Shown: positions 1 through 64,000 of the stretch, in pieces
Layout of the letters: each line of letters begins with the position of its first letter
How positions within the stretch are numbered: the stretch's first letter is position 1
NCBI GenBank assembly: GCA_041651115.1
Contig: JBAZJY010000001.1
Location: forward strand, 389,165 to 453,164
Direction: 5' to 3'
Origin: Candidatus Omnitrophota bacterium
GTDB lineage: Bacteria; Omnitrophota; Gorgyraeia; Gygaellales; Profunditerraquicolaceae
Length of the DNA stretch: 64,000 bases
Made by a program: the position numbers and the translations under genes
Notes under the pieces: model-generated
Told to the model about the DNA's origin: nothing
Databases searched by the model: none
What the model saw: the letters and a program-made list of their open reading frames with translations, nothing else

Positions 1-109
1 TATATCAACGGCGTCACCAGGCGTTATCTTGATGGCGTGGAGGCGTCCGGCCCTGAGCGTACGGACCTCTCCGCTTTATCGTTCATTTCTTTGGCAGGAT
101 GGTACTGAA

Positions 110-1174
110 ATGATCAATATTGATTTTTATATGAAGGTTGCCGAATTAAAAAGAGAATTGATGAAAGGCCGCGCCCTGGACAAAAAATATGTAGTTGATA
201 AATTCGAGCAATTCCGCAGCAAGGATCCGGTAATCTACAATATCGAAACAACTAATGTCTGTAATATGCGCTGCGTAATGTGCGCGCGCACCACCAAAAT
301 GACGCGTCAGATGAATACTCTTGATATGGATATATATAAGCGCGTCGTTGAACAGATAAAGCCGTTCCCGCAAGACCTGTGGGCGAAATGGAAAAAGTTT
401 GTCGTTGACTATTACGGTATCCGGCCTGACGAAATGGGAGAAAACCATTTTTTCCTTTATGTCATTGCCAAGTCGATCGTCATGCATGGCTTTGGAGAAC
501 CGTTGCTTGATCCCAAGATTGCCGAACGGATCAGGTTTTTAAGCGAAAAAAATATTCCTTCGTATTTTAGTTGCAATCCTGCGAACATCCATATTGATAA
601 AGTACTGGAGATCTTCGAAAGCGGTCTGGATTATTTTAAGCTGTCCATTGACAGCGTAGATGACGACCGGCAAAGGAAAGTCCGCGGGGACGCTTCCGGA
701 TTTACCGGGAATTATAAAAAGATTATCCGCTTATTGGATGAGAAAAAAGAGCATGGCTATAAAACTACGGTTGTCCTGACCATGCTTAACTTAAATATCG
801 GCAATGCCGCGGAAGAATTTGAAAAATTAAAAAAGTTATTTGAAGGCCGCCCGGTATACCTGTATTTTAAATGCCCTGACAATCAGTGGTACAGGGGGAC
901 AAAGCAGGCTACCAAGGCAATACACTGGTTGGAATTTTGCCAGGCCCCGTGGTCTACCTTATCGATACAGGCAAACGGCGATATCTCTGCCTGCGGCGCG
1001 GAAGATTATAACGGAGAATTGATCGTTGGTAATGCGCAGCATGAAACATTGGCCGATGCCTGGAATAGCGGAAAATTCCGGAAATTCCGCGAAGATCATT
1101 TTAATGTAAACAAAGAGATAAAATGCGCCGAAGAATGTGATATGAGACTGATCGGCGAACTGGTAAAGAATTAA
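110..1174 (+). CDS. radical SAM / SPASM-domain protein (paralog of 26745..27689)
   Basis: CxxxCxxC motif (NVCNMRCVMC) and a C-terminal Cys-rich SPASM-like region (C..C..C, CAEEC). The ORF-track start at 29 is TTG. The ATG at 110 gives an N-terminal length matching the paralog at 26745. Confidence 0.7.
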   Translation: MINIDFYMKVAELKRELMKGRALDKKYVVDKFEQFRSKDPVIYNIETTNVCNMRCVMCARTTKMTRQMNTLDMDIYKRVVEQIKPFPQDLWAKWKKFVVDYYGIRPDEMGENHFFLYVIAKSIVMHGFGEPLLDPKIAERIRFLSEKNIPSYFSCNPANIHIDKVLEIFESGLDYFKLSIDSVDDDRQRKVRGDASGFTGNYKKIIRLLDEKKEHGYKTTVVLTMLNLNIGNAAEEFEKLKKLFEGRPVYLYFKCPDNQWYRGTKQATKAIHWLEFCQAPWSTLSIQANGDISACGAEDYNGELIVGNAQHETLADAWNSGKFRKFREDHFNVNKEIKCAEECDMRLIGELVKN

Positions 1175-1186
1175 GAGGAATATGTA

Positions 1187-1990
1187 ATGCGGCCATTAAA
1201 CGAATTAAAAAATCTGCGCGGCAGGGTAGCGATCGTCACCGGCGGAACAGGCCATGCCGGCTCCGCGATCGCCGAGGCCCTGGCCGAATCCGGGGCTGCG
1301 GTGGTTATTATCGGAAGGGATAAGCTTAAATGCAGGTATAAGGCTGAAGATATTTCCCGCCGGTTTCATGTTGCGGCTTTGCCGCTGGCCATTGATCTTG
1401 AAGATGAATATAAAATCCGGCAAATCAATAAAAAAGTCCTACGGGAATTTGGCCGCGTTGATATCCTGGTTAACTGCGCTGCTATATTAACGGATAGCAG
1501 GACAAATAAATTATTCGCTCCGTTTGAAGCGCAGGACACTATATCGTGGAGAAAGGCAATAGAAGTAAATTTAACCGCAGCTTTTGTCTTAACGCAAGCC
1601 TGTAGGGAGGTGCTGGAGTTATCCGGTAAAGGATCAGTGATTAACATCAGCTCTATTTACGGGATTTCCGGACCGGATATGCGGCTGTATAAAGGCACGA
1701 AAATGGGGAATTCTGCTGCCTATGCCGCCAGTAAAGGCGGATTGGTTCAATTAACGCGCTGGCTAGCCACAGTCTTGGCTCCCAGAGTGCGCGTGAACGC
1801 AATTTCTTCCGGCGGCATATTCAGGAATCAGGATAAGCGGTTTATTGACCGTTATGTTGCGCGTACTCCTCTTAGGCGGATGGCATCAGAAGAAGACTTG
1901 AAAGGTGCGGCAATATACCTGGCAAGCGATCTTTCGGCGTATGTTACCGGCCATAATCTTATCGTAGATGGCGGTTGGACAGTATGGTAA
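1187..1990 (+). CDS. SDR family NAD(P)-dependent oxidoreductase
   Basis: TGGTGHAGSAIA Rossmann motif and the YAASK (YxxxK) catalytic motif, with SD-like gagga upstream. The C-terminal 40 aa are about 85% identical to the SDR at 9853. Confidence 0.8.
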   Translation: MRPLNELKNLRGRVAIVTGGTGHAGSAIAEALAESGAAVVIIGRDKLKCRYKAEDISRRFHVAALPLAIDLEDEYKIRQINKKVLREFGRVDILVNCAAILTDSRTNKLFAPFEAQDTISWRKAIEVNLTAAFVLTQACREVLELSGKGSVINISSIYGISGPDMRLYKGTKMGNSAAYAASKGGLVQLTRWLATVLAPRVRVNAISSGGIFRNQDKRFIDRYVARTPLRRMASEEDLKGAAIYLASDLSAYVTGHNLIVDGGWTVW

Positions 1991-3288
1991 ATAAAAGAAG
2001 GCTCTTGATTACTTTTGACCTGCGCAGGTTCGATGAAATTTTTCGGCCGCTGGTCCTGCAGCTTGCTCCTGAATTTAGGGTCAGTGTTTTGGCAATTGAC
2101 TGTTTTGCCCCTCCGGGAACAGATCGTACTCTTGCCCAGTGGCAGAAAGAAGGCTTGATAGAAAAATATACGGCTGTTCCTAATATTAGCTTTTATAACA
2201 GCTGCGCCCTAAAGATGCACCTGGCTATGCGGCGCATTGTCAGGCAGTTTAAGCCGCTCAATTTCGATCTTTGGGTAACTGTGGGTGAAACGGAAATAGT
2301 GGAAAGGTACATATCGGATTGTATTCTTCCGGACCGCTGCGTCAAGATCGTACTTTGGCCGTGTCTGACCAGGCTGTTGGAGAATAAAGAATTGGTGGAA
2401 AAAATGCTTTTTTCCTCCAATAGCATTAAACGCCGTAACGGTATGCCAGAAGGGTTGTTCAATAAGATACGGCAATCAGGAACCCCGGCAGAGCTCTTGC
2501 GCAAAATAACGGGTTTGTTGAAGCGCAAGTACATGTCGCTATTGAAAAAAATAAGCTTTTATTTTGACCGCTTTCTTGTCCCTTGGGTAATGGTCGGTAA
2601 AACTTTCGGATTTGGGCCGCATGACCGGCTTACCCAGCTTGGCTCCGGGCGCTCGGAGGTGATTATTTTTTGCGATGAAGTTGAGGCTGCGGCGCACAAG
2701 TTGCTTTTTAAGGCCCCGGATGTATATGCCGCTTATCATCCGACATACGGCAATTGCCGTTGTCAGGGCGATAAAAAGCATGCGAATACACTCCTGGTGC
2801 CGTTAAGTGTTTTTGTTGATTATAAGCGCATATCCGAAGAATACCTGTCTTTATTTCTGCGAGACCTGAAAACCGTGCTTTTAAATACAGGCACGGCCGC
2901 GGTGCATCTGCGCAGGCATCCGGATGACCGCGGTGCGTGGGTATATCAATTACGCGATTACCTTCTGCTTAATTCTGTCAATACGGAGATTGTGCCCTGC
3001 GACAAGCCGATCAGGGACGTTATGTGCGATTATAGGGGCATGGCTGGTTTTGCTTCCAATGCGTTGCGGGATGGCCGCGCAAGTTGCGATTATGCCTATA
3101 TCATCGGTTTTACCGCTGTTTCAAAGGGCCGCTATGCTGATCCGAAGTTTGTTTTCGGTAATTCGGAAGGCATAGGCTGGATAGAGGAAGACGGCTCGTA
3201 TAACCGTGAAATTTTCACAAAATACCGGCATGCGTTCCCGGAACGCAAAAAACCGATAGAGATTATATTAAGCAGGGCGAATAGTTGA
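1984..3288 (+). CDS. hypothetical protein, putative HP-motif GT-B transferase (TagF/CMP-sugar transferase-like)
   Basis: The ORF-track start at 1975 is TTG. The ATG at 1984 overlaps the upstream stop (tATGgTAA). The C-terminal half has RRHPDD followed by DVMCDYRGM, which resembles the HP and TDYSS motifs of TagF-type GT-B enzymes. This is a weak, motif-level call only. Confidence 0.3.
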   Translation: MVNKRRLLITFDLRRFDEIFRPLVLQLAPEFRVSVLAIDCFAPPGTDRTLAQWQKEGLIEKYTAVPNISFYNSCALKMHLAMRRIVRQFKPLNFDLWVTVGETEIVERYISDCILPDRCVKIVLWPCLTRLLENKELVEKMLFSSNSIKRRNGMPEGLFNKIRQSGTPAELLRKITGLLKRKYMSLLKKISFYFDRFLVPWVMVGKTFGFGPHDRLTQLGSGRSEVIIFCDEVEAAAHKLLFKAPDVYAAYHPTYGNCRCQGDKKHANTLLVPLSVFVDYKRISEEYLSLFLRDLKTVLLNTGTAAVHLRRHPDDRGAWVYQLRDYLLLNSVNTEIVPCDKPIRDVMCDYRGMAGFASNALRDGRASCDYAYIIGFTAVSKGRYADPKFVFGNSEGIGWIEEDGSYNREIFTKYRHAFPERKKPIEIILSRANS

Positions 3289-3292
3289 AAAT

Positions 3293-5128
3293 ATGCGCTT
3301 AAACAAAAAAATAAAATATTTCAAGTTTTTGCTGTCTCATTGGGGCCTGATACTGGGAATCCTGTTTTTAGGCATCCTGGTATCATTGATGGAAGGCCTG
3401 GGTATCGGGCTGCTGCTGCCTGTAATGGAAGGAGTTAAGGGGCTGGGTGATTTTCATGCACCGGTATTCTTTAATGCGCTAATCGGAATGTTTGCGAACC
3501 TATCGCTTGTGGTAAAAATCCAAATTGTTGCGCTATTGCTATTAGCTGTTACCGCGGCAAGGGAGACTTCGCTCTTTTTGAAGAATATTTACGTTGCGCG
3601 GCTGCAGGCAGTTATCAGCAGGCATTTTCAAATGGAATGCCTAAAGCAATTGCTCCGCTTGGATATGGGCTATATCAACAGTAGAAAAGCGGGAGACCTG
3701 CATGCAATAGTCTACTTTCATGCCTGGAATGTCAGTATGTCCATGGCCAGGGTCGGCGCGATCATCCACTTACCGTTTACGATCATTGTGCTGTTGATCG
3801 TGCTCTTTTCGCTTTCCTGGAAGATCGCCGGAGTCTCTGTTTTTCTTGCGGTCTTATTAGCGCTGGCCATACGGGTAATCCTAAAGAAGGCCGATAATGC
3901 CAGCAGGCGGTTAGGGGAAGCGATCAATGTAAGAAGCAGCGCGCTACTGGAGATTATTACCGGGATTAAGGTCATACATCTATTTAAGCGCGAAAATAGT
4001 TTTATCGATAAATTCAGCCGCGTAGTCGATGATTACAACGAAGTTACTTTTAACATTGCAAAAGTGACCGGTATGGTCAGTCCGTTCACGCAATTCCTGG
4101 GTGTCGGCATACTGGTGTTGATTATGGTCACGGCATTGTATTTGTTTCCTCAGGAAGGAAGCATACAGGTGCTTTTGATATTTATCATCACTTTTACCCG
4201 CTTGATAAATCCGGTCGTGGGGATAAATCAAGATAGAGTAAAATTTGCCGGAGACCTTCCGTATTACCGGGAAATATTCCGTTTCCTGGAAGAAAAGAAG
4301 CATATCTCAAGCGGTAAGGCCGTATTTACCGGGTTGAAGAATTCTATTGAAATGAAGGCGGTAGATTTTACCTATAGTTCCCGTCCGGACCGGATCCTCA
4401 ATGAAGTTTCGTTTGTAGTCAAGCGCGGTAGCAAGGTAGGCTTGGTCGGGCCATCCGGTGCAGGCAAATCCACGATTGCCGAGTTACTGCTCAGGTTCTA
4501 TGACCCGCAAAACGGCCTGATCATGGTTGACGGAGTAGATTTACGCGATTTAGACATAACCTCATGGCGCAAGCATATCGGCGTAGTTTCTCAGGACGTA
4601 TATCTTTTTAACGATACGGTGCGGTCCAATATCGCTTTTGCCAATCCTGAGGCAGGCGAGGAAGAAATCAGGGATGCGGCGATAAAAGCCCATGCCCACG
4701 CTTTTATCGCAGCCCTGCCAAGAGGTTATGATACGATTGTCGGTGACAGGGGCGTCCTTCTTTCCGGCGGCCAGAAACAACGTATTGCGATTGCGCGGGC
4801 GATCCTGGGCAATCCGGAAATCCTCGTGTTTGACGAAGCAACTTCCGCACTTGATACTGAATCGGAAAAAATTGTCCAGAAAGCGCTTAACGAGGTGAGC
4901 TGCGGCCGGACTGTCATCAGTATTGCCCACCGCATATCCACGATCTCTGACTCCGATAAGATTATTGTTATGGATGCCGGATACATCGCGGAAGAGGGAA
5001 CTCATCAGCAGCTTATTGGCCGCGGCGGATTATACAGCAAGCTTGTAAAGATGCAGGAATTAGAAGGCGAAGTGCAGGAGCAGGAAGCCGAACTAAAGGT
5101 CAGGGAAGGAATCAGGGAAATCCTATGA
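3293..5128 (+). CDS. ABC transporter, fused permease/ATPase (MsbA/PglK-type exporter)
   Basis: The N-terminal half has six predicted TM helices. Walker A is GPSGAGKST, the ABC signature is LSGGQKQR, and Walker B is ILVFDEATSALD. Confidence 0.85.
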   Translation: MRLNKKIKYFKFLLSHWGLILGILFLGILVSLMEGLGIGLLLPVMEGVKGLGDFHAPVFFNALIGMFANLSLVVKIQIVALLLLAVTAARETSLFLKNIYVARLQAVISRHFQMECLKQLLRLDMGYINSRKAGDLHAIVYFHAWNVSMSMARVGAIIHLPFTIIVLLIVLFSLSWKIAGVSVFLAVLLALAIRVILKKADNASRRLGEAINVRSSALLEIITGIKVIHLFKRENSFIDKFSRVVDDYNEVTFNIAKVTGMVSPFTQFLGVGILVLIMVTALYLFPQEGSIQVLLIFIITFTRLINPVVGINQDRVKFAGDLPYYREIFRFLEEKKHISSGKAVFTGLKNSIEMKAVDFTYSSRPDRILNEVSFVVKRGSKVGLVGPSGAGKSTIAELLLRFYDPQNGLIMVDGVDLRDLDITSWRKHIGVVSQDVYLFNDTVRSNIAFANPEAGEEEIRDAAIKAHAHAFIAALPRGYDTIVGDRGVLLSGGQKQRIAIARAILGNPEILVFDEATSALDTESEKIVQKALNEVSCGRTVISIAHRISTISDSDKIIVMDAGYIAEEGTHQQLIGRGGLYSKLVKMQELEGEVQEQEAELKVREGIREIL

Positions 5129-6186
5129 TCACTTTAATCGTACCGACGCTAAACCGCCCGGATTTTATCGCCAGAATACTTGATTATTACGAGAAAGTCG
5201 GCTATCGGCACAGTATCTTTATCGGCGATTCAAGCAGCGGGATCCATCTTGAGCGCAATAAAGATACCGTAGCTAAATCAAAAAATAAGGTCAAGGTCAC
5301 TTACCGGGAATATCCCAATACAAATCCTACGGCGTGTTTTAAAAGCCTGCTGGAATCGGTAGTCACGCCATACGCTGCCTTTTTGCCAGATGACGATTTT
5401 TTTATTCCTAACGGCCTGGAGAAATGCATTGAGTTTCTTGAGCATAATCCGGAATATGCCGGGGCGCACGGTATCGGGATCATATTGAACCTGGAATCGC
5501 CCGGCCCCTACGGCAAAGTGAAAAATGCCAGCGGATACCAACAAGCGGTTAGCCGGGAAAAAACAGCAGCCGAAAGGGTCCTGGCTTACTCCGGGAACCC
5601 CACCCTGCCGCTATTCTCCATTTATCGTACAGCGGTCTGGAAAAGGGCGTTCTGTAACGTTACTGCTTTGGCTGACCCGGCATTTACCGAGTTGCTTCCT
5701 AGTTACCTTGCAATCATTTCCGGAAAAATAGCCAGGTTAGATTGCCTCTATTCCGTAAGGCAATGCCATGACCGGCGCTATCTATTGCGCGATGTATACG
5801 ATTGGATTACGGGCCAGGAATGGTTTCCTTCTTACCAGGTTTTTTATCGCTGCGTGATAGAAGCGCTTATGGAAACAGACGGCATTAAAATAGAAGAGGC
5901 CCAAAAAATAGCCAAGCAGGCATTTTGGTCGTATTTAAGCAAAATCATCCCTTATAAATTTCATCATCAGTATATTGAAGACAAGAAGATAGGCCGCAAG
6001 ATCAAGGCTCTGGTGCAGGGTATTCCCGGAGGCCATAGTTGCTTATCGGTATTTAGAAAAATTAGGCCGGCTGCCGGCGGCAACCTTAGCCTTCCGGCGC
6101 TATTAAAAAAGTCATCGCCGCATCACCGTGATTTTATGCCGATTTATGACCTGATCACTGATCATGCCGGCAAAAACGCTGTTTAA
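5125..6186 (+). CDS. glycosyltransferase family 2-like protein
   Basis: The N-terminus LIVPTLNRPDFI is typical of GT2, a DDD motif follows, and the start overlaps the upstream stop as ATGA. Confidence 0.55.
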   Translation: MITLIVPTLNRPDFIARILDYYEKVGYRHSIFIGDSSSGIHLERNKDTVAKSKNKVKVTYREYPNTNPTACFKSLLESVVTPYAAFLPDDDFFIPNGLEKCIEFLEHNPEYAGAHGIGIILNLESPGPYGKVKNASGYQQAVSREKTAAERVLAYSGNPTLPLFSIYRTAVWKRAFCNVTALADPAFTELLPSYLAIISGKIARLDCLYSVRQCHDRRYLLRDVYDWITGQEWFPSYQVFYRCVIEALMETDGIKIEEAQKIAKQAFWSYLSKIIPYKFHHQYIEDKKIGRKIKALVQGIPGGHSCLSVFRKIRPAAGGNLSLPALLKKSSPHHRDFMPIYDLITDHAGKNAV

Positions 6187-7185: not shown

Positions 7186-7197
7186 CAAAAGTAAGAT

Positions 7198-15046: not shown

Positions 15047-15062
15047 GGAGGTAAAGATCGGC

Positions 15063-18360: not shown

Positions 18361-18364
18361 AAAT

Positions 18365-24671: not shown

Positions 24672-24672
24672 G

Positions 24673-48973: not shown

Positions 48974-48976
48974 AAT

Positions 48977-50512: not shown

Positions 50513-50513
50513 T

Positions 50514-52137: not shown

Positions 52138-52138
52138 G

Positions 52139-53450: not shown

Positions 53451-53457
53451 TCATAAA

Positions 53458-54243: not shown

Positions 54244-54246
54244 TTT

Positions 54247-58008: not shown

Positions 58009-58987
58009 TTTCTGGAAAGACAGGCACGTCTTTATTACCGGCGCATCCGGCCTTTTGGGGGCCTGGCTGACAAAAGAACTTGTCGATAGGCGGGCGCGCG
58101 TGGTCAGCCTTATCCGGGATGACGTCCCAAATTCAAACCTTATCCACTTCGGGTTAATGGACAAAATCACCGTGGTAAGAGGGAATATCGAAGATTATCC
58201 GCTGATCAGCCGCGTCATCAATGAGTACGAAACCCAGACCGTGTTTCACCTTGCCGCGCAGACTATCGTTACGGTGGCAAACCACAGCCCGCTGTCTACG
58301 TTCGAGGCAAACATAAAGGGGACATGGAATATCCTGGAGGCCTGCCGCAACGGAAAATTCATAAAAGAGGTTATCGTATCCTCAAGCGATAAAGCGTATG
58401 GCGAGAAAGAAAAGCTGCCTTACTGCGAAGACGACCCGCTGATCGGCCGGCACCCTTATGACGTTTCCAAAAGTTGCGCGGATTTGATCTGTCAATCATA
58501 TTTTAAAACCTATAATCTTCCCGTATGCGTTACCCGCTGCGCGAACCTCTACGGCGGCGGAGACCTGAATTTCAGCCGCATCATACCGGGGACGATCCGC
58601 TCTGCAATGAACAACGAACCGCCAATCATCAGGAGCGACGGAAAATATATCCGGGATTATTTTTATGTAAAAGACGCTGTCGCGGCAATGCTGGCGCTTG
58701 CGGAAAAAATACAGGCAAAAAAACTACAGGGAGAAGCCTTTAATTTTTCCAGCGGCATACACGTCAATGTCCTGTCGCTGGTAAACCTGATCTTGAAAAT
58801 AATGGGCAAAAAAATAAAGCCGCGCGTGCTTAATAAAACAAAACACGAGATCAGGGACCAATACCTTTCCATCGATAAAGCAAAAAGGATGCTTGGCTGG
58901 AAGCCCGCATACAGCTTGGAAGACGGCCTGCGCGAAACAATCGAGTGGTACAAAAAATACCTAAAAATCCCCGGGAGGCATTTATGA
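58001..58987 (+). CDS. rfbG: CDP-glucose 4,6-dehydratase
   Basis: [25 protein letters not shown] matches the RfbG N-terminus NFWQGKRVFVTGHTGFKGSWLSLWL. An extended-SDR YxxxK (YDVSKSC) is present. Confidence 0.8.
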
Positions 58988-59433
58988 TTAATGATGTAGT
59001 AATTAAAGAACTTACCCAGATCCCCGACGAACGCGGCAAGATCATGCATATGCTGCGTAAAGACGACGATATTTTTGAAGAATTCGGCGAGATCTATTTT
59101 TCAATCGTCTATCCGGGGGCGATAAAAGGCTGGCACCTGCATAAAAAAATGACCTTGAATTACGCGGTAGTAAACGGAATGATCAAGCTTGTATTATATG
59201 ACGGCAGAAAAGGCTCCCCCACGTTTAACGAAGTCCAGGAAATCTTCATGGGGGACGAGAACTATGTCCTGGTTAAAATACCCGCGGGTATCACTAACGG
59301 TTTTAAAGGCATCGGCACAAAACCGGCGATCGTAGCCAATTGCGCTACCCTGGCGCACGATCCTCAAGAGATTATACGGATCGACCCGCTAAAGAACGAT
59401 ATCCCCTATGATTGGGAGCTGAAACATCGATGA
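58984..59433 (+). CDS. cupin-fold nucleotide-sugar 3,5-epimerase or 3,4-ketoisomerase (RmlC/FdtA-like)
   Basis: [13 protein letters not shown] matches the F.DeRG motif of dTDP/CDP-4-keto-6-deoxyhexose epimerases. Length is 149 aa. The ATG at 58984 overlaps the rfbG stop as ATGA. Confidence 0.6.
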
Positions 59434-60314
59434 ACCAGGCGCTTATTATCGGGGCATCCGGCCTGGTAGGAAATTACCTTCATAAATTGGCGCCTGCCGA
59501 TTATAGGGTTTCCGGGACATTCCGTAACTTTCCTTTGCCCGGGCTGCTTAAACTCGAGATCACCGATAAGAACGAAGTCAAAAGTTTAATCCTTGGCCTT
59601 AAGCCGCAAACCGTATTTTTGCCGGCAGCTTTTACGAATGTAGATATCTGTGAGGACGATCCGGGGTTATGCCATAAAGTCAACGTGGAAAGCATCCGCA
59701 ATATCGCGGATATTTTATCGGTTACAGGCGCAATGCCGGTTTATTTCTCTACGGACTATATCTTTGACGGCAGCAGCGGGCCTTACAGCGAAGTTGCTTC
59801 TCCGTGCCCGTTAGGCACTTACGGTAGATCAAAACTAGAAGCAGAAGAGGCCATAAAAAGAAATTTAAAAAACTACCTGATTATCAGGACTACCTGCGTA
59901 TATGGATGGGAGCATCAGGAAAAAAATTTTGTCGTCAACCTGATCAAAAAGGCAAAATCCGGGAAAATCATTGAAGTTCCGTCAGACCAGATCACTACGC
60001 CGACTTATGCGGGCCATTTGGCTTGCCTGACATGGGGACTGGTATCGGGAGGCGCCCAAGGGACATATAATGTCGCCGGCGCAACCTTGATGAGCCGTTT
60101 TGATTTTGCGCTTCTGGCTGCGGAAGTATTCGGATTGGATAAAAACCTTATAAAGCCGATTACAACTCAAGAGATGTCACGAAAGGCAAGGCGGCCGCTG
60201 AATGCCGGATTAAAAATAACCAAGATAAGCGAGGAATTAAAACGGGGGATCCCCGGTGCGGAAGAAGGGCTTAAGGAAATGAAAAAGGAAATGGGAAATG
60301 GCCGAACATTATAA
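59430..60314 (+). CDS. RmlD-like nucleotide-sugar 4-ketoreductase
   Basis: ALIIGASGLVGNYL, FSTDYIFDG and YGRSKLEAEE are collinear with RmlD. The ATGA-coupled ATG is at 59430. Confidence 0.65.
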   Translation: MNQALIIGASGLVGNYLHKLAPADYRVSGTFRNFPLPGLLKLEITDKNEVKSLILGLKPQTVFLPAAFTNVDICEDDPGLCHKVNVESIRNIADILSVTGAMPVYFSTDYIFDGSSGPYSEVASPCPLGTYGRSKLEAEEAIKRNLKNYLIIRTTCVYGWEHQEKNFVVNLIKKAKSGKIIEVPSDQITTPTYAGHLACLTWGLVSGGAQGTYNVAGATLMSRFDFALLAAEVFGLDKNLIKPITTQEMSRKARRPLNAGLKITKISEELKRGIPGAEEGLKEMKKEMGNGRTL

Positions 60315-61608
60315 ACAGGCAAGGATCAGAAAAAAGATATTCAAGCTGGTAAAAGATTTCTATCTCGCCGGAAAAAGCGCTGCGGATAACGGCAGGATAA
60401 ACTGCTCCGGCCGCGTGTATGACGAAAAAGAAATGATCTCCCTTGTTGACTCGGCACTGGAATTCTGGCTGACCAGCGGCAGGTTTACCAGGGAATTTGA
60501 AGCGGCATTTTCCAGTTTTCTCGGAATAAAACACAGTCTGCTTGTCAATTCCGGTTCATCCGCCAACTTATTGGCAATAGCTGCCCTGACTTCTCCTGAA
60601 CTAGGCAGAAAAAAGCTCTCGCCCGGAGATGAAGTTATCACTACGGCGGCTGCCTTCCCGACAACCGTTAACCCAATAGTGCAGAATCAACTGGTCCCTG
60701 TCTTTGTGGACGTAGAGCTGCCGACATACAATGTTGACGCCGGGGCATTAAAAAAAGCTATCTGCAGAAAAACAAAGGCAATTTTTATCGCCCATACCCT
60801 GGGCAACCCATTTAACATTAGAGAGGTCTCAAGGCTTGCCAAAAAACACGGGCTATTCCTGATTGAAGACGCCTGCGATGCGCTGGGATCAAAATACCAC
60901 AATAGGCTTACCGGCACATTCGGAGACATAAATACTTTCAGCTTTTATCCTGCCCATCATATAACTATGGGCGAAGGCGGGGCGGTAGTTACCGACAATA
61001 AAAAGCTAAAGATCATCCTGCAGTCGTTCCGGGATTGGGGAAGGGCATGCTGGTGCGAAACCGGGTTTGATAACTGCTGCGGCAAGAGATTCAAATGGCA
61101 GTTAGGAAAACTCCCCTATGGCTACGACCATAAATACACATACTCGCACTTAGGTTATAACCTTAAGGCAACGGATATGCAGGCGGCCATCGGCGTTGAA
61201 CAGCTAAAAAAACTTCCATATTTCATATCTAAACGGCAGCGCAATTTTGATTTACTCTACAAAGGCCTGAAGCAGTATTCCCGTTATTTAATCTTACCCG
61301 AGGCAACACCCGGCTCAACTCCCAGTTGGTTCGGCTTCCTGATTTCGGTGGCTAAAAACGCCGGATTTACCAAAAATGACCTCGTGGAATACCTGGAAAG
61401 AAACAAGATCGCCACGCGCATGCTTTTTGCCGGGAATATCACAAAACAGCCGGCGTATAAAAATGTCAGGTTCCGCGTATCCGGAACGCTCAGGGACACG
61501 GATTTTATCATGCAAAACGCATTCTGGATCGGGGTCTATCCGGCACTCGGAGACAATCAAATAAACTACGTCCTGGAAACCTTCAAGAGATTCTTTAAAA
61601 CCCGATAA
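60298..61608 (+). CDS. CDP-4-keto-6-deoxyglucose 3-dehydrase-like (DdhC/E1-type PMP enzyme with Fe-S motif)
   Basis: DegT fold with FSFYPAHHITMGEGG, where His-His replaces the PLP-Lys. About 32 aa downstream lies CWCETGFDNCC, which is C-x1-C-x7-C as reported for the E1 [2Fe-2S] site. Length is 436 aa. Confidence 0.7.
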   Translation: MAEHYKQARIRKKIFKLVKDFYLAGKSAADNGRINCSGRVYDEKEMISLVDSALEFWLTSGRFTREFEAAFSSFLGIKHSLLVNSGSSANLLAIAALTSPELGRKKLSPGDEVITTAAAFPTTVNPIVQNQLVPVFVDVELPTYNVDAGALKKAICRKTKAIFIAHTLGNPFNIREVSRLAKKHGLFLIEDACDALGSKYHNRLTGTFGDINTFSFYPAHHITMGEGGAVVTDNKKLKIILQSFRDWGRACWCETGFDNCCGKRFKWQLGKLPYGYDHKYTYSHLGYNLKATDMQAAIGVEQLKKLPYFISKRQRNFDLLYKGLKQYSRYLILPEATPGSTPSWFGFLISVAKNAGFTKNDLVEYLERNKIATRMLFAGNITKQPAYKNVRFRVSGTLRDTDFIMQNAFWIGVYPALGDNQINYVLETFKRFFKTR

Positions 61609-62645
61609 TGGCGCCATTAGTTTCAGTAATCATCGTAAACCATAACGGTATTGTTTTTGTTGATGGCTGCCTGAAATCAGTATTCGCCGGTAATTATCCC
61701 GCTTTAGAAGTGATTTTTGTCGACAACGGCTCAACTGACTCAAGCCTTGAATTCGTAAAAAATAATTTCGCATCAGATAGCCGATTAAAGATCGTAGAAA
61801 ACAAGGCGAGCCTGGGCCCTGCCGTCGGCAGGAACAGGGGGGCTGCGGTTGCCGCCGGTAAATATTTATTTTTTCTTGATAACGACACTAAAATAGATAA
61901 AAATTGCGTCGGCGAATTGGTAGATGCCCTGGAAAACAATATTTCAATCGGCGCCGCGCAAGCAAAATTACTAAAAATGGATTCGGGCGGCCTTTATGAC
62001 TGCGCAGGAGATTATTTGGGCCCGTTAGGTTTTTTGATCGAGCGCGCGCAGGGCGCAAAAGATAATGGCCAGTTTGATTTTATTTCCGATATTTTAAGCG
62101 CCAAATCCGCCGCAAGTATAATAAGAAAAGGGCTGTTTGACCAGATCGGCGGGTTTGACGAGAGTTATTACATGTATCTTGAAGAAACCGACCTTAGCTG
62201 GAGGGTATGGCTTGCCGGCTACCGCGTAGTATTTATTCCCGGGGCAGTCGTACAACATGCCTTCAATACCCCGAAAAAAGAATTTAAACGCTATTACACT
62301 AAATACATTGTCCGGTATTTTGGCTGCCGGAATTATATCACAACCCTGATAAAGAACCTCCAGCCGGGGAATCTCCTGAAAATCCTGCCGCTGCATGTTG
62401 CCTGTTGGCTGGCTTTAGCCTTATTGTTTATCATCAAGTTATCCCCTATGGACAGCCTGTATATTTTAAAAGGCATCGGCTGGAATATCCTGCATATAGG
62501 GTCCATTTTAAATAAGAAAGCGCGGATCAGCCGGGATATCCGTAAAAAAACCGATTCCCAGATCCTGCCAAAGATAATGGACAAAAGAAAGATTAATTAT
62601 TATTTCGGGAAGGGATTTGCCTATCTTACGGGCAGAAGCTATTAA
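61608..62645 (+). CDS. glycosyltransferase family 2 (with C-terminal membrane segment)
   Basis: VSVIIVNHNG...VIFVDNGSTDSS and a DND motif. The stop/start is TAATG. Confidence 0.75.
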   Translation: MAPLVSVIIVNHNGIVFVDGCLKSVFAGNYPALEVIFVDNGSTDSSLEFVKNNFASDSRLKIVENKASLGPAVGRNRGAAVAAGKYLFFLDNDTKIDKNCVGELVDALENNISIGAAQAKLLKMDSGGLYDCAGDYLGPLGFLIERAQGAKDNGQFDFISDILSAKSAASIIRKGLFDQIGGFDESYYMYLEETDLSWRVWLAGYRVVFIPGAVVQHAFNTPKKEFKRYYTKYIVRYFGCRNYITTLIKNLQPGNLLKILPLHVACWLALALLFIIKLSPMDSLYILKGIGWNILHIGSILNKKARISRDIRKKTDSQILPKIMDKRKINYYFGKGFAYLTGRSY

Positions 62646-62656
62646 ATACCTGCAAA

Positions 62657-64000
62657 ATGAAAATACTTTTCATTGTACCAAAAAATAAATCACTTTTTGG
62701 CGATAAAGGCAAGACCGTGCATCCGCATATCGGCATCGCCTACCTGTGCGCCTTCCTGAAAAACAACGGCATAGAAACGGCGGTATTCGATGACGGTGTT
62801 GAAAAAAGCTCAAGTGACGTGTTTAAAGCCATTAAAGAAATAGAACCGGATATCATCGGCGTCACGATTTTCAGTTATTGCTATGGATACGCGTATGAGC
62901 TGATAAAATTGATCAAGCAGCGCTCTAACCTGCCTATGGTCCTCGGAGGGCCGCATATCAGCACGGTAAAAGGAAAAATACTGGATGATACGTCCGTAGA
63001 ATTTGCCGTAAAGCATGAGGGTGAATTTACCCTGTTGGAACTTCTCCGCGAGTTGGATAAAAAAAATCCCGATTTTAGCAGTGTCGCCGGACTGATCTGG
63101 CGCGGAAAAGAAGGCAGGATAACGGAAAACATTGACCGGCCGCTGATCGAGGACTTAGACAGCCTGCCGATACCAGACTATGATATCTTCGGCATAGAGC
63201 GTTACGCCTGCTACCAGCAAAAAGCACTGCCGATCATCACTTCCCGCGGCTGTCCGTTTGGCTGCAATTACTGTTCAGTCAGACTGTCCATGGGCCAAAA
63301 GTTCCGGCCGCGCAGCGCGGAAAATGTCTTCACGGAAATAGAATATTTTTATCGCCGGGGCTGGCGGAGCTTTGACTTTAATGACGATTGTTTCACTTTA
63401 AGACAAGACCGCGCAGAGAGAATATGCGACATGATCATTGATAATAAACTGGACATTCGCTTCCAGCTCTATAATGGGATAAGGGTGGACACCGTGACCC
63501 CGGAACTTCTAAAAAAAATGAAGAAAGCAGGGTGCTATTTTATTTCCTTCGGCTGCGAAGCGGGGAATGATAAAGTATTAAAAGCGATAAAAAAGGGAAT
63601 AACCATTGAGCAGGTAAAAAATGCCGTAAACTGGGCGAATGCCGCGAAGATCAATAATTCCGTGAATTTTATCATCGGCCATAAAGAAGAAACCTATGCC
63701 GATGCCATGGATACGATAAATTTTGCCAGGCGCCTGCCGACAAATTTCGTCAACTTCTACAACCTTTTGCCGTATCCCGGCACCGAGTCGTTTGAATGGG
63801 CAAAACAGCACGCCAGTTTTCTGATCCCGCCGGATTCGATCCTGGAAAATATTTCTTACCGCGATAACAAACCGATATTTGAAACCAAGGAATTCACCAA
63901 AGAACAAAGGGAGAAAATCATCTCTCTGGGCTTTAAATTATACCGGAAAAAGATCCTCACCTTTAGGCTGGGAAAAGTGCTGGGAGGGCTGGTATACCTG
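62657..64000 (+). CDS. B12-binding domain radical SAM protein (3' end outside the window)
   Basis: The ATG at 62657 starts MKILFIVPKN. A B12-binding-like N-terminal domain is followed by a TSRGCPFGCNYC radical-SAM motif. The reading frame stays open to the window edge. Confidence 0.8.
   Translation, partial: MKILFIVPKNKSLFGDKGKTVHPHIGIAYLCAFLKNNGIETAVFDDGVEKSSSDVFKAIKEIEPDIIGVTIFSYCYGYAYELIKLIKQRSNLPMVLGGPHISTVKGKILDDTSVEFAVKHEGEFTLLELLRELDKKNPDFSSVAGLIWRGKEGRITENIDRPLIEDLDSLPIPDYDIFGIERYACYQQKALPIITSRGCPFGCNYCSVRLSMGQKFRPRSAENVFTEIEYFYRRGWRSFDFNDDCFTLRQDRAERICDMIIDNKLDIRFQLYNGIRVDTVTPELLKKMKKAGCYFISFGCEAGNDKVLKAIKKGITIEQVKNAVNWANAAKINNSVNFIIGHKEETYADAMDTINFARRLPTNFVNFYNLLPYPGTESFEWAKQHASFLIPPDSILENISYRDNKPIFETKEFTKEQREKIISLGFKLYRKKILTFRLGKVLGGLVYL

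What the first reader, a model, noticed from the sequence alone, without database searches (positions are those of the whole stretch)
1..64000. A more than 64 kb co-directional, translationally coupled super-operon combining five nucleotide-sugar pathways
Every credible gene is on the + strand. About half of the junctions are 1-26 nt overlaps (ATGA, TTGA or TAATG), and the largest gap is 93 nt. The locus runs off both ends of the window. One transcription unit would therefore specify an exceptionally elaborate glycan: an amidino/formyl nonulosonic acid, a GDP-dideoxyhexose, a CDP-dideoxyhexose, a heptose, methyl groups and radical-SAM modifications. Such complexity is more typical of glycans that decorate surface proteins or S-layers of uncultivated lineages than of ordinary O-antigens.
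Basis: partly seen in the sequence, partly recalled or inferred. Interest (0 to 1): 0.6.

Follow-up and report, generated by a model that had tools for sequence, protein, structure and literature searches.

The report
Giant one-strand surface-glycan gene island
The window is the middle of a gene island of more than 100 kb in an uncultivated Omnitrophota bacterium, in which about 97 tightly packed genes on one DNA strand, nearly all of them for building and exporting elaborate cell-surface sugars; it is an unusually large example of a known kind of locus and probably not a single operon.

Summary
62 + strand ORFs tile the window and 32-37 of 61 junctions overlap. I found no credible - strand gene, tRNA, Rfam hit or GC break. 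One correction: the 93-nt "largest gap" depends on a 52-aa ORF (43767-43925) that NCBI does not annotate; without it the largest gap is 170 nt.

The source is a Candidatus Omnitrophota MAG (647-kb contig). Two other assemblies match at 100% identity. Walking outward, the same-strand run spans at least 100.2 kb and about 97 genes (window -36105 to +64102). It includes rpsA and tyrS; tyrS stops 3 nt before wzx. Two - strand genes then follow.

The pathway reading is largely supported: a legionaminic-type nonulosonic acid with amidino and formyl tailoring, GDP- and CDP-linked 3-deoxygenation, heptose, and five radical-SAM genes. Assembly genes are also present (phosphoglycosyl transferase, WecG, Wzy_C, ABC exporter).

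"One transcription unit" is not supported. The best promoter-like sites sit at cassette boundaries (40596-40653, 57226-57254). Related loci, including three other named Omnitrophota genomes, are equally one-stranded over 20 kb. Leptospira rfb loci also exceed 100 kb.

Verdict: a new, very large member of a known kind, with some uncharacterised enzymes inside.

The parts
1..108 (+). 3' end of an upstream AsnB-like (Asn_synthase) gene that starts at window -1811
161..1174 (+). radical SAM/SPASM enzyme (W01)
   Evidence: Pfam Radical_SAM + SPASM; start from the Logan gene call
1187..6186 (+). SDR (W02), 434-aa protein of unknown family (W03), fused TMD-NBD ABC exporter (W04; HepA/MsbA/PglK-like) and GT2 (W05). 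This block is conserved next to the NeuB-fusion cassette in relatives.
6190..10656 (+). three GFO/IDH/MocA-type oxidoreductases (W06-W08), a CMP-sugar-type cytidylyltransferase (W09) and an SDR (W10). The set resembles PtmF/PtmB/PtmA (resemblance from my own knowledge).
   Evidence: syntenic in L095 at 47-66% identity
10650..13489 (+). formyltransferase (W11), nonulosonic acid synthase NeuB/LegI-type (W12) and hydrolysing UDP/GDP-GlcNAc 2-epimerase NeuC/LegG-type (W13)
   Evidence: NCBIfam NeuB_NnaB 505 vs cut-off 399.65 and NeuC 487.8 vs 235.9; formyltransferase motifs NFHPG...H...D
13486..16304 (+). WbuZ/HisF-like, HisH and WbuX N-acetyl-sugar amidotransferase trio (acetamidino formation)
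   Evidence: WbuX 363 vs cut-off 203; HisH 212 vs 105; WbuZ 287.6 vs 299.7
16305..19537 (+). CBS + nucleotidyltransferase (PtmE-like), LegB-type 4,6-dehydratase and LegC aminotransferase
   Evidence: LegC 452.7 vs cut-off 420; LegB 438.4 vs 475
19537..23179 (+). P-loop protein of unknown family (W20), second CTP_transf_3 cytidylyltransferase (W21), AroB-type 3-dehydroquinate-synthase homologue (W22) and SDR (W23). These genes are part of a conserved legionaminic-plus cassette.
   Evidence: syntenic in L097 at 63-75% identity
23151..24671 (+). B12-binding radical SAM enzyme (W24), absent from the syntenic cassette in L097
24673..26748 (+). 691-aa GT-B-fold transferase of a large uncharacterised family (W25)
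   Evidence: no Pfam, NCBIfam or PDB-sequence hit; 1602 family representatives; AF2 pLDDT 92.3; Foldseek hits to TagF, a capsule polymerase and 2-epimerases
26745..30281 (+). radical SAM/SPASM (W26), methyltransferase (W27) and a 613-aa protein (W28) weakly similar to the TIGR04326 surface-carbohydrate family
   Evidence: a W28 homologue follows the W25 homologue in L097
30322..40565 (+). assembly block: RmlD (W29), GT2 (W30), polytopic membrane protein with a weak Wzy_C match (W31), methyltransferase (W32), GT1/GT4 (W33), 11-TM protein of unknown family (W34), WecG/TagA transferase (W35), polyprenyl glycosylphosphotransferase (W36) and Wzy_C ligase/polymerase-family protein (W37)
   Evidence: EPS_sugtrans 394.6 vs cut-off 295.55; Wzy_C 69.9 vs 31.7
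40566..40658 (+). 93-nt intergenic gap with two tandem promoter-like sites (TTGAGC-N17/18-TATAAT); the first has a TGn extended -10
   Evidence: no significant RNA structure
40659..47942 (+). GDP-sugar block: Fcl/ColC-like reductase (W38), GT2 (W39), 484-aa polytopic membrane protein (W40), 52-aa membrane ORF (W41), Gmd (W42), E1/ColD-type PMP dehydratase (W43) and two GT2 (W44, W45)
   Evidence: Gmd 419.8 vs cut-off 415; Lys-to-His substitution and Cys-rich insert in W43
43767..43925 (+). 52-aa hydrophobic ORF, ATGA-coupled to W40 and not annotated by NCBI. If it is not real, 43771-43940 is a 170-nt gap holding a weak terminator-like hairpin at 43852-43866.
47981..51077 (+). heptose block: epimerase (W46), HldE-like bifunctional enzyme with swapped domain order (W47) and GmhA-like isomerase (W48). 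It is preceded by an AT-rich 38-nt gap (47943-47980) with three TATAAT boxes.
51070..57279 (+). radical SAM/SPASM (W49), split transketolase (W50, W51), GT2 (W52), xylose-isomerase-like TIM barrel (W53), and 546-aa and 249-aa membrane proteins of unknown family (W54, W55)
57226..57254 (+). best sigma-70-like match in the window (TTGTCA-N17-TATAAT, 11 of 12), 29 nt upstream of the first gene of the CDP-sugar cassette
57283..61608 (+). CDP-3,6-dideoxyhexose block: RfbF-like (W56), RfbG-like (W57), cupin epimerase (W58), RmlD-like reductase (W59) and RfbH/E1 dehydrase (W60)
   Evidence: RfbH 689.8 vs cut-off 423; SFYPAHH motif and Cys-rich insert
61608..64000 (+). GT2 (W61) and a B12-binding radical SAM enzyme (W62, 62657 to 64102, running 102 nt past the window end)

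Best explanation
The window is the central 64 kb of a chromosomal island of at least 103 kb for cell-envelope glycan biosynthesis in a Candidatus Omnitrophota bacterium.

The island is a mosaic of conserved cassettes. Each cassette makes one activated sugar:
- a CMP-legionaminic-type nonulosonic acid with amidino and formyl tailoring
- a GDP-6-deoxy or 3,6-dideoxy-hexose
- a CDP-3,6-dideoxyhexose
- a nucleotide-heptose
- upstream of the window, GDP-mannose, dTDP-rhamnose and a second ulosonic acid made by NeuB fusion proteins

Radical-SAM, cobalamin and methyl tailoring enzymes are interleaved with these cassettes.

Inferred mechanism (not shown): the sugars are assembled on a polyprenyl-phosphate carrier, starting with the phosphoglycosyl transferase at 37923-39344. 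About a dozen GT-A and GT-B transferases extend the chain. It is flipped by the ABC exporter (3293-5128) and/or the upstream Wzx. It is then polymerised or ligated by Wzy_C-type and other polytopic membrane proteins. Probably more than one glycan or assembly route is encoded.

Shown: gene content, gene order, strand, junctions, the source organism, and conservation of the cassettes.

Inferred: the co-orientation and 0-4-nt junctions reflect the compact, strand-biased architecture of these genomes. Transcription is from several promoters, at least at cassette boundaries, rather than as one 64-100 kb mRNA.
For: Source and integrity:
- Proteins are identical to NCBI MAG 'Candidatus Omnitrophota bacterium' entries on a 647,104-bp contig.
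- Logan and ENA assemblies are 100% identical to the window and to each other.
- GC is 0.42-0.51 for nearly all genes, including rpsA and tyrS; only the small HTH_24 gene falls outside, at 0.37.

Pathway assignments rest on curated cut-offs and on active-site motifs.

Assembly machinery: PGT, WecG, Wzy_C, ABC exporter, seven GT2 and one GT1; Wzx upstream; W25 is a GT-B fold.

Cassette conservation:
- L095 keeps the block from U03 (the FAD-oxidoreductase/NeuB fusion upstream of the window) through W10, and a NeuB gene begins at its end.
- L097 keeps W14-W23, W25 and W28 but lacks W24, W26 and W27.

Packing is not operon-specific:
- The tyrS-to-wzx gap is 3 nt, and rpsA and tyrS lie in the same run.
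- Relatives are one-stranded over 16-22 kb.

Internal promoter candidates:
- There are two promoter-like matches of 10/12 or better in the 93-nt gap. From the ten such + strand matches in the whole window, about 0.015 would be expected there.
- The window's best match (11/12) lies 29 nt before the CDP cassette.

Precedent: Leptospira rfb loci exceed 100 kb (PMC13111663). Overlapping ORFs are typical of O-antigen and S-layer glycan clusters (PMC2943079).
Against: - No transcript data are available, so multi-promoter transcription is an inference from consensus matches in an organism whose promoter consensus is unknown.
- Terminator-like sites are at chance level and the gaps show no structure. 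That is also what a single long operon would look like.
- No Wzz, Wza/Wzc, Lpt or oligosaccharyltransferase gene was recognised in the 107 kb, so the final acceptor (lipid A-core, protein or free polymer) is unknown.
- Seven window proteins have no family assignment.
- Several pathway enzymes score below the curated cut-offs: RfbF, RfbG, GmhA, HldE, Fcl and the CMP-transferases.
- Expected partners are missing from the window: E3/RfbI, GmhB and a LegH-type acetyltransferase.
Confidence: 0.8

Rival explanations
1. One reading: the whole co-directional block is one transcription unit, a translationally coupled super-operon of 64 kb to more than 100 kb. It would be read through by a processive antitermination mechanism and would specify a single very elaborate glycan.
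For: - No strand switch across about 97 genes.
- More than half of the junctions overlap, including 13 ATGA overlaps in the window.
- Terminator-like sites are at chance level (25/24.2, 26/26.0 and 30/26.1 found vs expected) and none lies in the accepted gaps.
Against: - The run includes rpsA and tyrS, with 134-161-nt gaps around them, and an HTH regulator gene.
- Near-consensus promoter-like sites lie at two cassette boundaries.
- The ops-like motif GGCGGTAG is over-represented (5 found vs 1.3 expected). But all copies lie inside coding sequence, the four + strand copies share one codon phase (Ala-Val), and none occurs in the 43 kb of flanks.
- Two candidate flippases and several Wzy-like proteins argue for more than one product.
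- Cassettes occur separately and in other orders in relatives.
Confidence: 0.07
2. Assembly artefact: a chimeric contig that strings together sugar cassettes from different population members or organisms.
For: - Polysaccharide islands are hypervariable in strain swarms, including Omnitrophota (bioRxiv 10.64898/2026.05.20.726742).
- The Logan assembly breaks at window ~51204-51232.
Against: - Three assemblies (NCBI 647 kb, ENA 188 kb, Logan 81 + 19.6 kb) are 100% identical where they overlap.
- The Logan break lies inside an intact radical-SAM/SPASM ORF and carries no repeated 15-mer.
- GC and GC3 are uniform and equal to those of the housekeeping genes.
- Paralogues are at most 58% identical, so there are no repeats that could mis-join.
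- Every junction keeps ORFs intact.
Confidence: 0.03
3. Part of the block, especially 19537-30281 and 47981-57279, is a specialised-metabolite pathway rather than surface-glycan biosynthesis. The product would be an aminocyclitol, C7-cyclitol or aminoglycoside-like glycoside. The idea rests on the AroB-type cyclase, aminotransferases, B12 and SPASM radical-SAM enzymes and split transketolases, all of which also typify such clusters (this comparison is from my own knowledge).
For: - W22 is a DHQ-synthase-family enzyme (aroB 310.9 vs cut-off 305).
- W24 and W62 have weak similarity to AprD4- and PhpK-type radical-SAM enzymes.
- Split transketolases and GmhA/SIS genes supply C7 sugar phosphates.
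Against: - W22 is much closer to genuine DHQ synthases (200 bits) than to 2-deoxy-scyllo-inosose synthase (106) or a further cyclase-type relative, 4p53 (100).
- W20-W23, W25 and W28 are strictly syntenic with the legionaminic genes in L097.
- W25 has a polymerase-like GT-B fold.
- The block is embedded among PGT, Wzy, Wzx, ABC and glycosyltransferase genes.
- No resistance, regulator or exporter set typical of antibiotic clusters was seen.
Confidence: 0.1

Closest known systems
Leptospira rfb (LPS O-antigen) locus
   Same: - A very large LPS/O-antigen locus on one strand of a diderm bacterium, exceeding 100 kb in some strains (PMC13111663).
- It runs as a unit in one sense (PMC9736851).
- ORFs are tightly packed and overlapping (PMC2943079).
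- It contains dTDP-rhamnose genes, a WcaJ-type PGT, Wzx, and a Wzy long annotated as an 11-TM protein of unknown function (PMC13111663).
- W28 weakly matches the Leptospira-derived TIGR04326 family.
   Different: - Different phylum (PVC-group Omnitrophota).
- No GC dip relative to the flanking housekeeping genes, whereas Leptospira rfb shows low-GC horizontal-transfer signatures (PMC9736851).
- No MarR/SdcS-type boundary genes.
- Eight radical-SAM genes, and NeuB fusion proteins.
- The acceptor of the glycan is unknown.
Campylobacter jejuni legionaminic acid pathway and flagellin glycosylation island (PtmA-H, LegB/C/G/H/I/F)
   Same: The GDP-GlcNAc-route enzyme set is present:
- a CBS-nucleotidyltransferase (PtmE-like)
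- LegB, LegC, NeuC/LegG and NeuB/LegI
- a CMP-transferase, and GFO-type and SDR oxidoreductases (PtmF/PtmA-like)
- a WbuX-type amidotransferase for acetamidino groups
(the pathway itself is from my own knowledge.)
   Different: - No Maf/MAF_flag10 flagellin transferase was found.
- There is no hexapeptide LegH acetyltransferase in the window; a formyltransferase is present instead.
- Extra conserved genes (P-loop protein, AroB-type enzyme, SDR, two GT-B-like proteins) follow LegC.
- The set is embedded in a polyprenol-linked assembly locus.
Salmonella/Yersinia rfb 3,6-dideoxyhexose pathway (RfbF, RfbG, RfbH/E1, RfbI/E3; ascarylose AscA-F) and the E. coli/Yersinia GDP-colitose pathway (ManC, Gmd, ColD, ColC)
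   Same: - RfbH is well above its cut-off and carries the His-for-Lys active site and a Cys-rich insert.
- RfbF-like and RfbG-like genes, a cupin epimerase and an RmlD-like reductase sit in one cassette.
- Gmd lies next to a second His-type dehydratase, with an Fcl-like reductase nearby.

   Different: - No E3/RfbI reductase is present in the window.
- The GDP-side dehydratase has an E1-like Cys-rich insert, whereas ColD has no Fe-S cluster (from my own knowledge).
- RfbF, RfbG and Fcl score below the curated cut-offs.
Hypervariable surface-polysaccharide islands of streamlined or small-genome environmental bacteria (SAR11 hypervariable region; Omnitrophota polysaccharide cassette)
   Same: One large surface-polysaccharide locus per genome in small environmental bacteria. 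Variable polysaccharide cassettes have been reported in Omnitrophota (bioRxiv 10.64898/2026.05.20.726742).
   Different: The three assemblies examined here (at least one of them, Logan, from run SRR8542065) give one identical sequence. Size and content (at least 103 kb, nonulosonic acids, radical-SAM tailoring) were not described in the papers I could search.
Tannerella forsythia general protein O-glycosylation cluster and S-layer glycan (slg) clusters
   Same: A nonulosonic acid (Pse or Leg, with amidino modifications) tops a complex glycan. The genes are closely packed, overlapping and co-oriented, and a Wzy_C-family protein could act as an O-oligosaccharyltransferase (PMC5378307, PMC6120980, PMC2943079).
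   Different: Those clusters are far smaller than this island (slg clusters roughly 16-27 kb, from my own knowledge). No S-layer gene or recognisable O-OTase was identified here, so protein glycosylation remains untested.

Membership tests
Polyprenol-linked surface polysaccharide (O-antigen/capsule/EPS) gene cluster | Initiating polyprenyl-phosphate glycosylphosphotransferase | tested here: met
   W36 (37923-39344): Bac_transf 230 bits; TIGR03025 EPS_sugtrans 394.6 vs cut-off 295.55
Polyprenol-linked surface polysaccharide (O-antigen/capsule/EPS) gene cluster | Flippase or exporter (Wzx or ABC) | tested here: met
   ABC TMD-NBD exporter at 3293-5128 (HepA/MsbA/PglK-like, below equivalog cut-offs). 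Wzx (Polysacc_synt) at window -32212..-30968.
Polyprenol-linked surface polysaccharide (O-antigen/capsule/EPS) gene cluster | Polymerase or ligase of the Wzy/WaaL type | tested here: met
   W37 (39360-40565): Wzy_C 69.9 vs cut-off 31.7. W31 has a weak Wzy_C match (E = 0.001). Ligase, polymerase and O-OTase roles cannot be told apart.
Polyprenol-linked surface polysaccharide (O-antigen/capsule/EPS) gene cluster | Chain-length regulator or outer-membrane export genes (Wzz, Wza/Wzc, KpsD/E) | tested here: not met
   No such Pfam family appears among the hits for the 107 kb examined
Polyprenol-linked surface polysaccharide (O-antigen/capsule/EPS) gene cluster | Product is a cell-surface glycan attached to lipid A-core, lipid or protein | not testable with these tools
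   Needs glycomics of the organism or heterologous expression
Legionaminic acid pathway (GDP-GlcNAc route) | LegC aminotransferase, NeuC/LegG 2-epimerase and NeuB/LegI synthase | tested here: met
   LegC 452.7 vs cut-off 420; NeuC 487.8 vs 235.9; NeuB_NnaB 505 vs 399.65. The NeuB model does not separate Neu from Leg synthases.
Legionaminic acid pathway (GDP-GlcNAc route) | LegB 4,6-dehydratase and a CMP-Leg synthetase | tested here: inconclusive
   LegB 438.4 vs cut-off 475. W09 and W21 match CTP_transf_3, but against PseF they score only 147 and 76 vs cut-off 205.7.
Legionaminic acid pathway (GDP-GlcNAc route) | LegH-type hexapeptide N-acetyltransferase | tested here: not met
   No Hexapep/PglD family hit in the window. 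A formyltransferase (10650-11321) is present instead. The L097 relative has a PglD_N/Hexapep gene.
CDP-3,6-dideoxyhexose pathway | E1 (RfbH) PMP-dependent 3-dehydrase with His replacing the catalytic Lys | tested here: met
   W60: RfbH 689.8 vs cut-off 423. The SFYPAHH motif aligns with the Lys of LegC, and a Cys-rich insert is present.
CDP-3,6-dideoxyhexose pathway | RfbF cytidylyltransferase and RfbG 4,6-dehydratase | tested here: inconclusive
   241.8 vs cut-off 300.25 and 210.2 vs 278.45
CDP-3,6-dideoxyhexose pathway | E3 (RfbI) flavin/[2Fe-2S] reductase | tested here: not met
   No ferredoxin-reductase-type domain among the window proteins
GDP-colitose-type pathway | Gmd plus a ColD-type 3-dehydratase plus a ColC/Fcl-type reductase | tested here: inconclusive
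   Gmd is met (419.8 vs cut-off 415). W43 is RfbH-family (259 vs 423) with the Lys-to-His substitution, but carries an E1-like Cys-rich insert. W38 is Fcl-like (208 vs 500).
Nucleotide-heptose pathway (GmhA, HldE/HddA+HddC, GmhB, HldD) | Isomerase, kinase, nucleotidyltransferase and phosphatase | tested here: inconclusive
   - GmhA-like: 108 vs cut-off 209.
- HldE-like: both domains are present but in reversed order and below cut-offs.
- No GmhB/HAD phosphatase in the window.
- HddA/HddC-like pair upstream: 145 vs 600 and 131 vs 300.

Single operon (one transcription unit) | Uninterrupted co-orientation without intrinsic terminators | tested here: met
   No strand switch. Terminator-like sites are at chance level and none lies in the accepted intergenic gaps; one weak site (43852-43866) falls in the 170-nt gap that exists if the 52-aa ORF is rejected. 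This is a consensus scan only.
Single operon (one transcription unit) | No internal promoters; one continuous transcript | tested here: inconclusive
   Promoter-like sites lie at 40596-40653 and 57226-57254, which argues against a single unit. The organism's promoter consensus is unknown and no RNA data are available.

The most novel reading that the evidence does not exclude
The island encodes sugar chemistry that has not been described. Candidates:
(i) Five radical-SAM enzymes in the window (eight in the whole run), three of them cobalamin-dependent, tailoring nucleotide sugars or the growing glycan.
(ii) A genuine DHQ-synthase-type enzyme (W22) that, with a P-loop protein, a cytidylyltransferase and an SDR, forms a conserved extension of the legionaminic acid cassette. 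It may make a new CMP-activated ulosonic or carbocyclic sugar.
(iii) W25, the founder of a large unannotated GT-B family (about 1,600 clusters at 50% identity), as the matching transferase or polymerase.
(iv) Just upstream of the window, a UGM/PPO-like flavoenzyme fused to NeuB, making a second unknown ulosonic acid.
Probability: 0.35. Interest if true: 0.65.

Novelty: new member of a known kind. Interest (0 to 1): 0.4.

Why it matters
Omnitrophota are uncultivated bacteria, widespread and described as ultra-small (my own knowledge), whose cell surface is essentially unknown. This genome keeps more than 100 kb of contiguous genes for one or a few surface glycans, on a 647-kb contig. That implies the glycan coat is central to the organism's biology, for example in attachment, phage evasion or interaction with hosts or prey. 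The searchable literature holds no report of nonulosonic acids in this phylum.

Practically, the locus offers a compact, syntenic set of uncharacterised enzymes that could be expressed and tested:
- the W25 GT-B family
- the AroB-type enzyme in the legionaminic cassette
- the NeuB fusion proteins
- the B12 radical-SAM enzymes

It also gives a cautionary example. In compact, strand-biased genomes, overlapping same-strand genes do not by themselves define an operon.

Tried and rejected
- **ops/JUMPstart-like antitermination signal.** GGCGGTAG occurs 5 times against 1.3 expected. All copies are inside coding sequence and the four + strand copies share one codon phase (Ala-Val). Two of them lie in a shared 16-mer encoding GGAVVT. 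None occurs in the 43 kb of flanks. Rejected as a codon effect.
- **Over-represented or strand-asymmetric 8-mers.** Nothing stood out.
- **Rfam, tRNA and tmRNA.** None found.
- **RNA structure in the four largest gaps.** z-scores were -0.19 to 0.30.
- **Recent tandem duplication.** The best paralogue pair is 58% identical.
- **Codon-usage scoring of - strand ORFs.** It discriminated poorly. Rejection of the - strand ORFs rests on their full overlap with domain-supported + strand genes.
- **The two small - strand ORFs called upstream in the ENA assembly.** The + frame there encodes a GT2 (FLDDDAWP motif, C-terminal TM helices), so these calls are spurious.
- **Finding the source contig.** It is not in the GTDB representative genomes (best 70% identity) or the JGI metagenome contigs (best 73%). 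It was identified through exact-protein look-ups instead.
- **PDB sequence searches** of W03, W25, W28, W34, W40 and W54, plus a W25 profile: no hits.
- **Leptospira literature.** Searches for an explicit statement that all genes lie on one strand gave only indirect wording. The size precedent came from PMC13111663.
- **Genome-wide strand bias of this MAG.** It could not be measured, because only about 107 kb of the contig could be reached with the tools.

Full report
**1. Observation**

A mechanical ORF scan finds a continuous chain of + strand ORFs. With starts refined by upstream context there are 62 genes, including a 52-aa ORF, and 61 junctions. Of these junctions:
- 32 overlap (37 if the longest ORFs are used). 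13 are 4-nt ATGA overlaps and 2 are 1-nt overlaps.
- 24 are gaps of 0-15 nt.
- Only three gaps exceed 17 nt: 38, 40 and 93 nt.

Summed ORF lengths equal about 99.7% of the window. About 50 of the 62 products match Pfam or NCBIfam families. Every - strand ORF of 100 aa or more lies within one of these genes. There are no tRNA/tmRNA genes and no Rfam matches.

- The ORF at 43767-43925 (52 aa, hydrophobic, ATGA-coupled) is needed for "largest gap 93 nt". NCBI's consecutive protein accessions skip it: the PGT is MFA5156170 and Gmd is MFA5156175. In the public annotation the largest gap is therefore 170 nt (43771-43940).
- Bases 1-108 are the tail of an upstream AsnB-like gene, and the first complete gene starts at 161.
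- At the 3' end the last gene stops at 64102, and a convergent - strand gene ends at 64107.

**2. Source and integrity**

Exact-sequence look-ups place the window proteins in an NCBI MAG named Candidatus Omnitrophota bacterium (locus tags WC532_*), on a 647,104-bp contig. Omnitrophota is a phylum of the PVC group.

Two independent assemblies carry the same DNA at 100% identity:
- Logan SRR8542065, contigs of 81,467 and 19,611 bp
- ENA ERZ27247363, contig of 187,946 bp

The Logan contigs break at window ~51204-51232. That point lies inside an intact radical-SAM/SPASM ORF and carries no repeated 15-mer. GC is 0.42-0.51 for nearly every gene, the same as rpsA (0.48) and tyrS (0.47); only the small HTH_24 gene is lower, at 0.37. 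The closest paralogue pair is 58% identical.

**3. True extent**

I walked outward using exact-protein look-ups and built a 106,920-bp composite with zero mismatches between pieces.

Upstream of the window, every gene is on the + strand. In order they are:
- PGM/PMM, an acyltransferase, rpsA, tyrS, Wzx and two GT2
- a 492-aa radical-SAM enzyme and a PQ-loop protein
- ManC and a GDP-mannose-3,5-epimerase-like SDR
- a methyltransferase, RmlA-, RmlC- and RmlB-like genes, and an HTH_24 regulator
- further epimerases, a second split transketolase and a conserved 344-aa protein
- a B12 radical-SAM enzyme, a MiaB-like radical-SAM enzyme and more epimerases
- an HddA/HddC-like kinase and nucleotidyltransferase pair
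- a flavoenzyme-NeuB fusion (797 aa), an NAD-binding protein, a NeuB-cytidylyltransferase fusion (583 aa) and the AsnB-like gene

Two small - strand ORFs called in the ENA assembly are spurious. The + frame there encodes a GT2 with a DxD motif and C-terminal TM helices, as the Logan gene call has it.

The unbroken + run is therefore at least 100.2 kb and about 97 genes (window -36105 to +64102). Its start was not reached. After two - strand genes (a methyltransferase and a GT1), glycan genes resume on the + strand. The glycan-related stretch, from wzx onward, is at least 103 kb.

**4. What the genes are**

Assignments above curated NCBIfam cut-offs:

| Gene | Score vs cut-off |
|---|---|
| NeuB | 505 / 400 |
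| NeuC | 488 / 236 |
| HisH | 212 / 105 |
| WbuX | 363 / 203 |
| LegC | 453 / 420 |
| AroB | 311 / 305 |
| RmlD | 244 / 224 |
| Gmd | 420 / 415 |
| RfbH | 690 / 423 |
| EPS-type phosphoglycosyl transferase | 395 / 296 |

Just below cut-off: WbuZ/HisF (288/300) and LegB (438/475). Clearly below: RfbF, RfbG, a second RmlD-like gene, Fcl-like, GmhA-like and HldE-like.

Sequence motifs add support.
- In an alignment with LegC, both RfbH (SFYPAHH) and the Gmd-adjacent DegT protein (SFYIAHN) carry His where aminotransferases have the catalytic Lys. Both also have a Cys-rich insert. They are 3-dehydratases, not transaminases.
- The formyltransferase keeps the Asn/His/Asp motifs.

Some expected partners are missing from the window: E3/RfbI, GmhB and a LegH-type acetyltransferase.

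Assembly genes in the window:
- the PGT (W36), WecG/TagA, seven GT2 and one GT1
- a Wzy_C protein and an MsbA/HepA/PglK-like ABC exporter
- four further large polytopic membrane proteins with no confident family match (one has a weak Wzy_C match), plus a 249-aa four-helix membrane protein

**5. Unknown proteins**

Seven window proteins have no family match.

For W25 (691 aa) an exhaustive search found 1,602 family representatives (568 at E ≤ 1e-30). An AlphaFold model built on a 53-sequence alignment has pLDDT 92.3 and pTM 0.93. Its best structural matches are GT-B enzymes: a capsule-polymerase multienzyme, the teichoic-acid polymerase TagF, 2-epimerases and HepE. W25 is thus a GT-B transferase or polymerase of an unannotated family.

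In GCA_018826075.1 (L097) the genes W14-W23, W25 and W28 are strictly syntenic at 47-75% identity (W28 at 29%). W24, W26 and W27 are absent there. This defines a conserved "legionaminic-plus" cassette into which radical-SAM and methyl tailoring genes have been inserted in the present genome.

The AroB homologue in that cassette is closer to genuine DHQ synthases (200 bits) than to 2-deoxy-scyllo-inosose synthase (106) or a further cyclase-type relative, 4p53 (100). Its role is unexplained.

**6. Operon or architecture?**

Consensus scans give promoter-like and terminator-like counts equal to shuffled expectation. The gaps show no RNA structure. The distribution of the best promoter-like matches is informative, however.
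- Two tandem sites lie in the 93-nt gap before the GDP-sugar block. One is TTGAGC-N17-TATAAT with a TGn extension. From the window-wide density of + strand matches of 10/12 or better, about 0.015 would be expected there.
- The best match in the whole window (11/12) ends 29 nt before the first gene of the CDP-sugar cassette.
- The 38-nt gap before the heptose block holds three TATAAT boxes.

The same-strand run also contains rpsA and tyrS. tyrS stops 3 nt before wzx. Tight junctions thus join unrelated functions.

Related loci show the same architecture.
- Of 33 loci of 15 kb or more fetched through homologues, 21 have no strand switch. This used a crude ORF caller that overcalls switches.
- Four relatives with called genes have none over 21-22 kb, across about 80 junctions: three named Omnitrophota genomes (GCA_043800555.1, GCA_021735655.1, GCA_001805465.1) and GCA_018826075.1.

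Cassettes recur in different orders in relatives. I conclude that co-orientation and overlap are properties of these compact genomes and loci, and that several promoters are likely. No RNA data were available, so this remains inference. GC skew is positive along the whole window, consistent with leading-strand placement.

**7. Comparison with known systems**

The closest analogue is the Leptospira rfb locus.
- It exceeds 100 kb in some strains (PMC13111663).
- It behaves as a one-sense block (PMC9736851).
- It has tightly overlapping ORFs (PMC2943079).

The nonulosonic part resembles the Campylobacter legionaminic pathway. The deoxyhexose cassettes resemble the Salmonella/Yersinia rfb and colitose pathways. 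Variable polysaccharide cassettes have been reported in Omnitrophota (bioRxiv 10.64898/2026.05.20.726742).

I found no paper linking Omnitrophota with nonulosonic acids.

The acceptor of the glycan is not decidable. No Wzz, Wza, Lpt, Maf or recognisable oligosaccharyltransferase gene was seen.

**8. Verdict**

The finding is a real feature and it is larger than described. The sugar-pathway interpretation is largely right. The single-operon claim is unsupported.

It is a new and very large member of a known kind of locus, in an under-studied phylum. It contains a few enzyme families worth experimental follow-up.

Interest 0.4.

Noticed in passing
L001:1727-4120 (window -7087..-4694), outside the window: A 797-aa fusion of an FAD enzyme with a NeuB-type synthase. 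The N-terminal domain has a GxGxxG motif and its structural neighbours are protoporphyrinogen oxidase and UDP-galactopyranose mutase. The C-terminal domain matches PseI/NeuB (TM-score 0.86-0.90 relative to the target). The family is highly conserved (73% mean column identity), with more than 120 full-length members at 59-70% identity. Members are named from Omnitrophota, Margulisiibacteriota, Marinimicrobia, Magnetococcales, Thermodesulfobacteriota and a Nitrososphaerales archaeon. Function is unknown.
   Followed up: partly
L001:4117-6949 (window -4697..-1865): The fusion above is followed by a 352-aa NAD-binding protein and a 583-aa NeuB + CTP_transf_3 fusion (synthase and activating enzyme in one chain). 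The same trio is seen in an Omnitrophota locus (L095, 57-65% identity) and, as far as its contig reaches, in L004; weaker matches to the second and third genes follow it in L005 (Elusimicrobia).
   Followed up: partly
window 24673-26748: W25 belongs to a large family with no Pfam, NCBIfam or PDB-sequence match (1,602 representatives at 50% clustering). A confident AF2 model shows a GT-B fold with an extra N-terminal domain.
   Followed up: yes
window 21276-22415: A DHQ-synthase-family gene, at the aroB equivalog cut-off and closest to genuine DHQ synthases in the PDB. It sits between a CMP-type cytidylyltransferase and an SDR inside a conserved legionaminic acid cassette (63% identical and syntenic in L097). 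Its substrate is unexplained.
   Followed up: partly
window 48977-50512: The HldE-like bifunctional enzyme has its domains in reverse order relative to the HldE reference model: nucleotidyltransferase at residues 33-157, PfkB kinase at 196-496.
   Followed up: no
window 52139-53450 and window -18759..-17109: Two split transketolase pairs (N-terminal and pyrimidine-binding halves as separate, overlapping genes) lie in one glycan island; their N-terminal halves are 34% identical. A 57-61% identical pair occurs in another Omnitrophota genome (L094).
   Followed up: no
window 43767-43925: A 52-aa hydrophobic ORF, ATGA-coupled to the preceding membrane protein, is missing from the NCBI annotation. 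If it is not real, the 170-nt gap holds a weak terminator-like hairpin (43852-43866) and then a strong Shine-Dalgarno sequence (AAGGAGAG) before gmd.
   Followed up: partly
L002:12495-12500 (window 64102-64107): The co-directional run ends in a convergent gene pair whose stop codons are only 4 nt apart, leaving no room for an intergenic terminator.
   Followed up: no
L092:3890-3894 (window about -32216..-32212): tyrS (tyrosyl-tRNA synthetase) stops 3 nt before the wzx flippase gene, so a housekeeping gene is packed as tightly against the glycan island as the island's own genes are against each other.
   Followed up: yes
L092:5874-6818 (window -30232..-29288): Two assemblies of identical DNA have conflicting gene calls here. 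ENA calls two small - strand ORFs, and Logan calls a 314-aa + strand gene. The + frame encodes a GT2 with a DxD motif and C-terminal TM helices, so the - strand calls are spurious.
   Followed up: yes
window 40745-40760 and 60978-60993: An identical 16-mer, GGGGCGGTAGTTACCG (encoding GGAVVT), occurs in two unrelated genes and contains the E. coli ops core GGCGGTAG. About 0.5 such coincidences are expected in 64 kb, so I judged it chance.
   Followed up: yes
L091:5301-5651 (window -21786..-21436): A 116-aa HTH_24 regulator gene with the lowest GC in the region (0.37 vs about 0.46) sits inside the co-directional run, between the RmlB-like and epimerase genes.
   Followed up: no
whole 107-kb composite: Shine-Dalgarno-like motifs precede only 39 of 98 + strand genes (control 12.4 +/- 3.2). 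95 of the 98 starts used are ATG, and all 18 four-nt overlaps read ATGA.
   Followed up: partly
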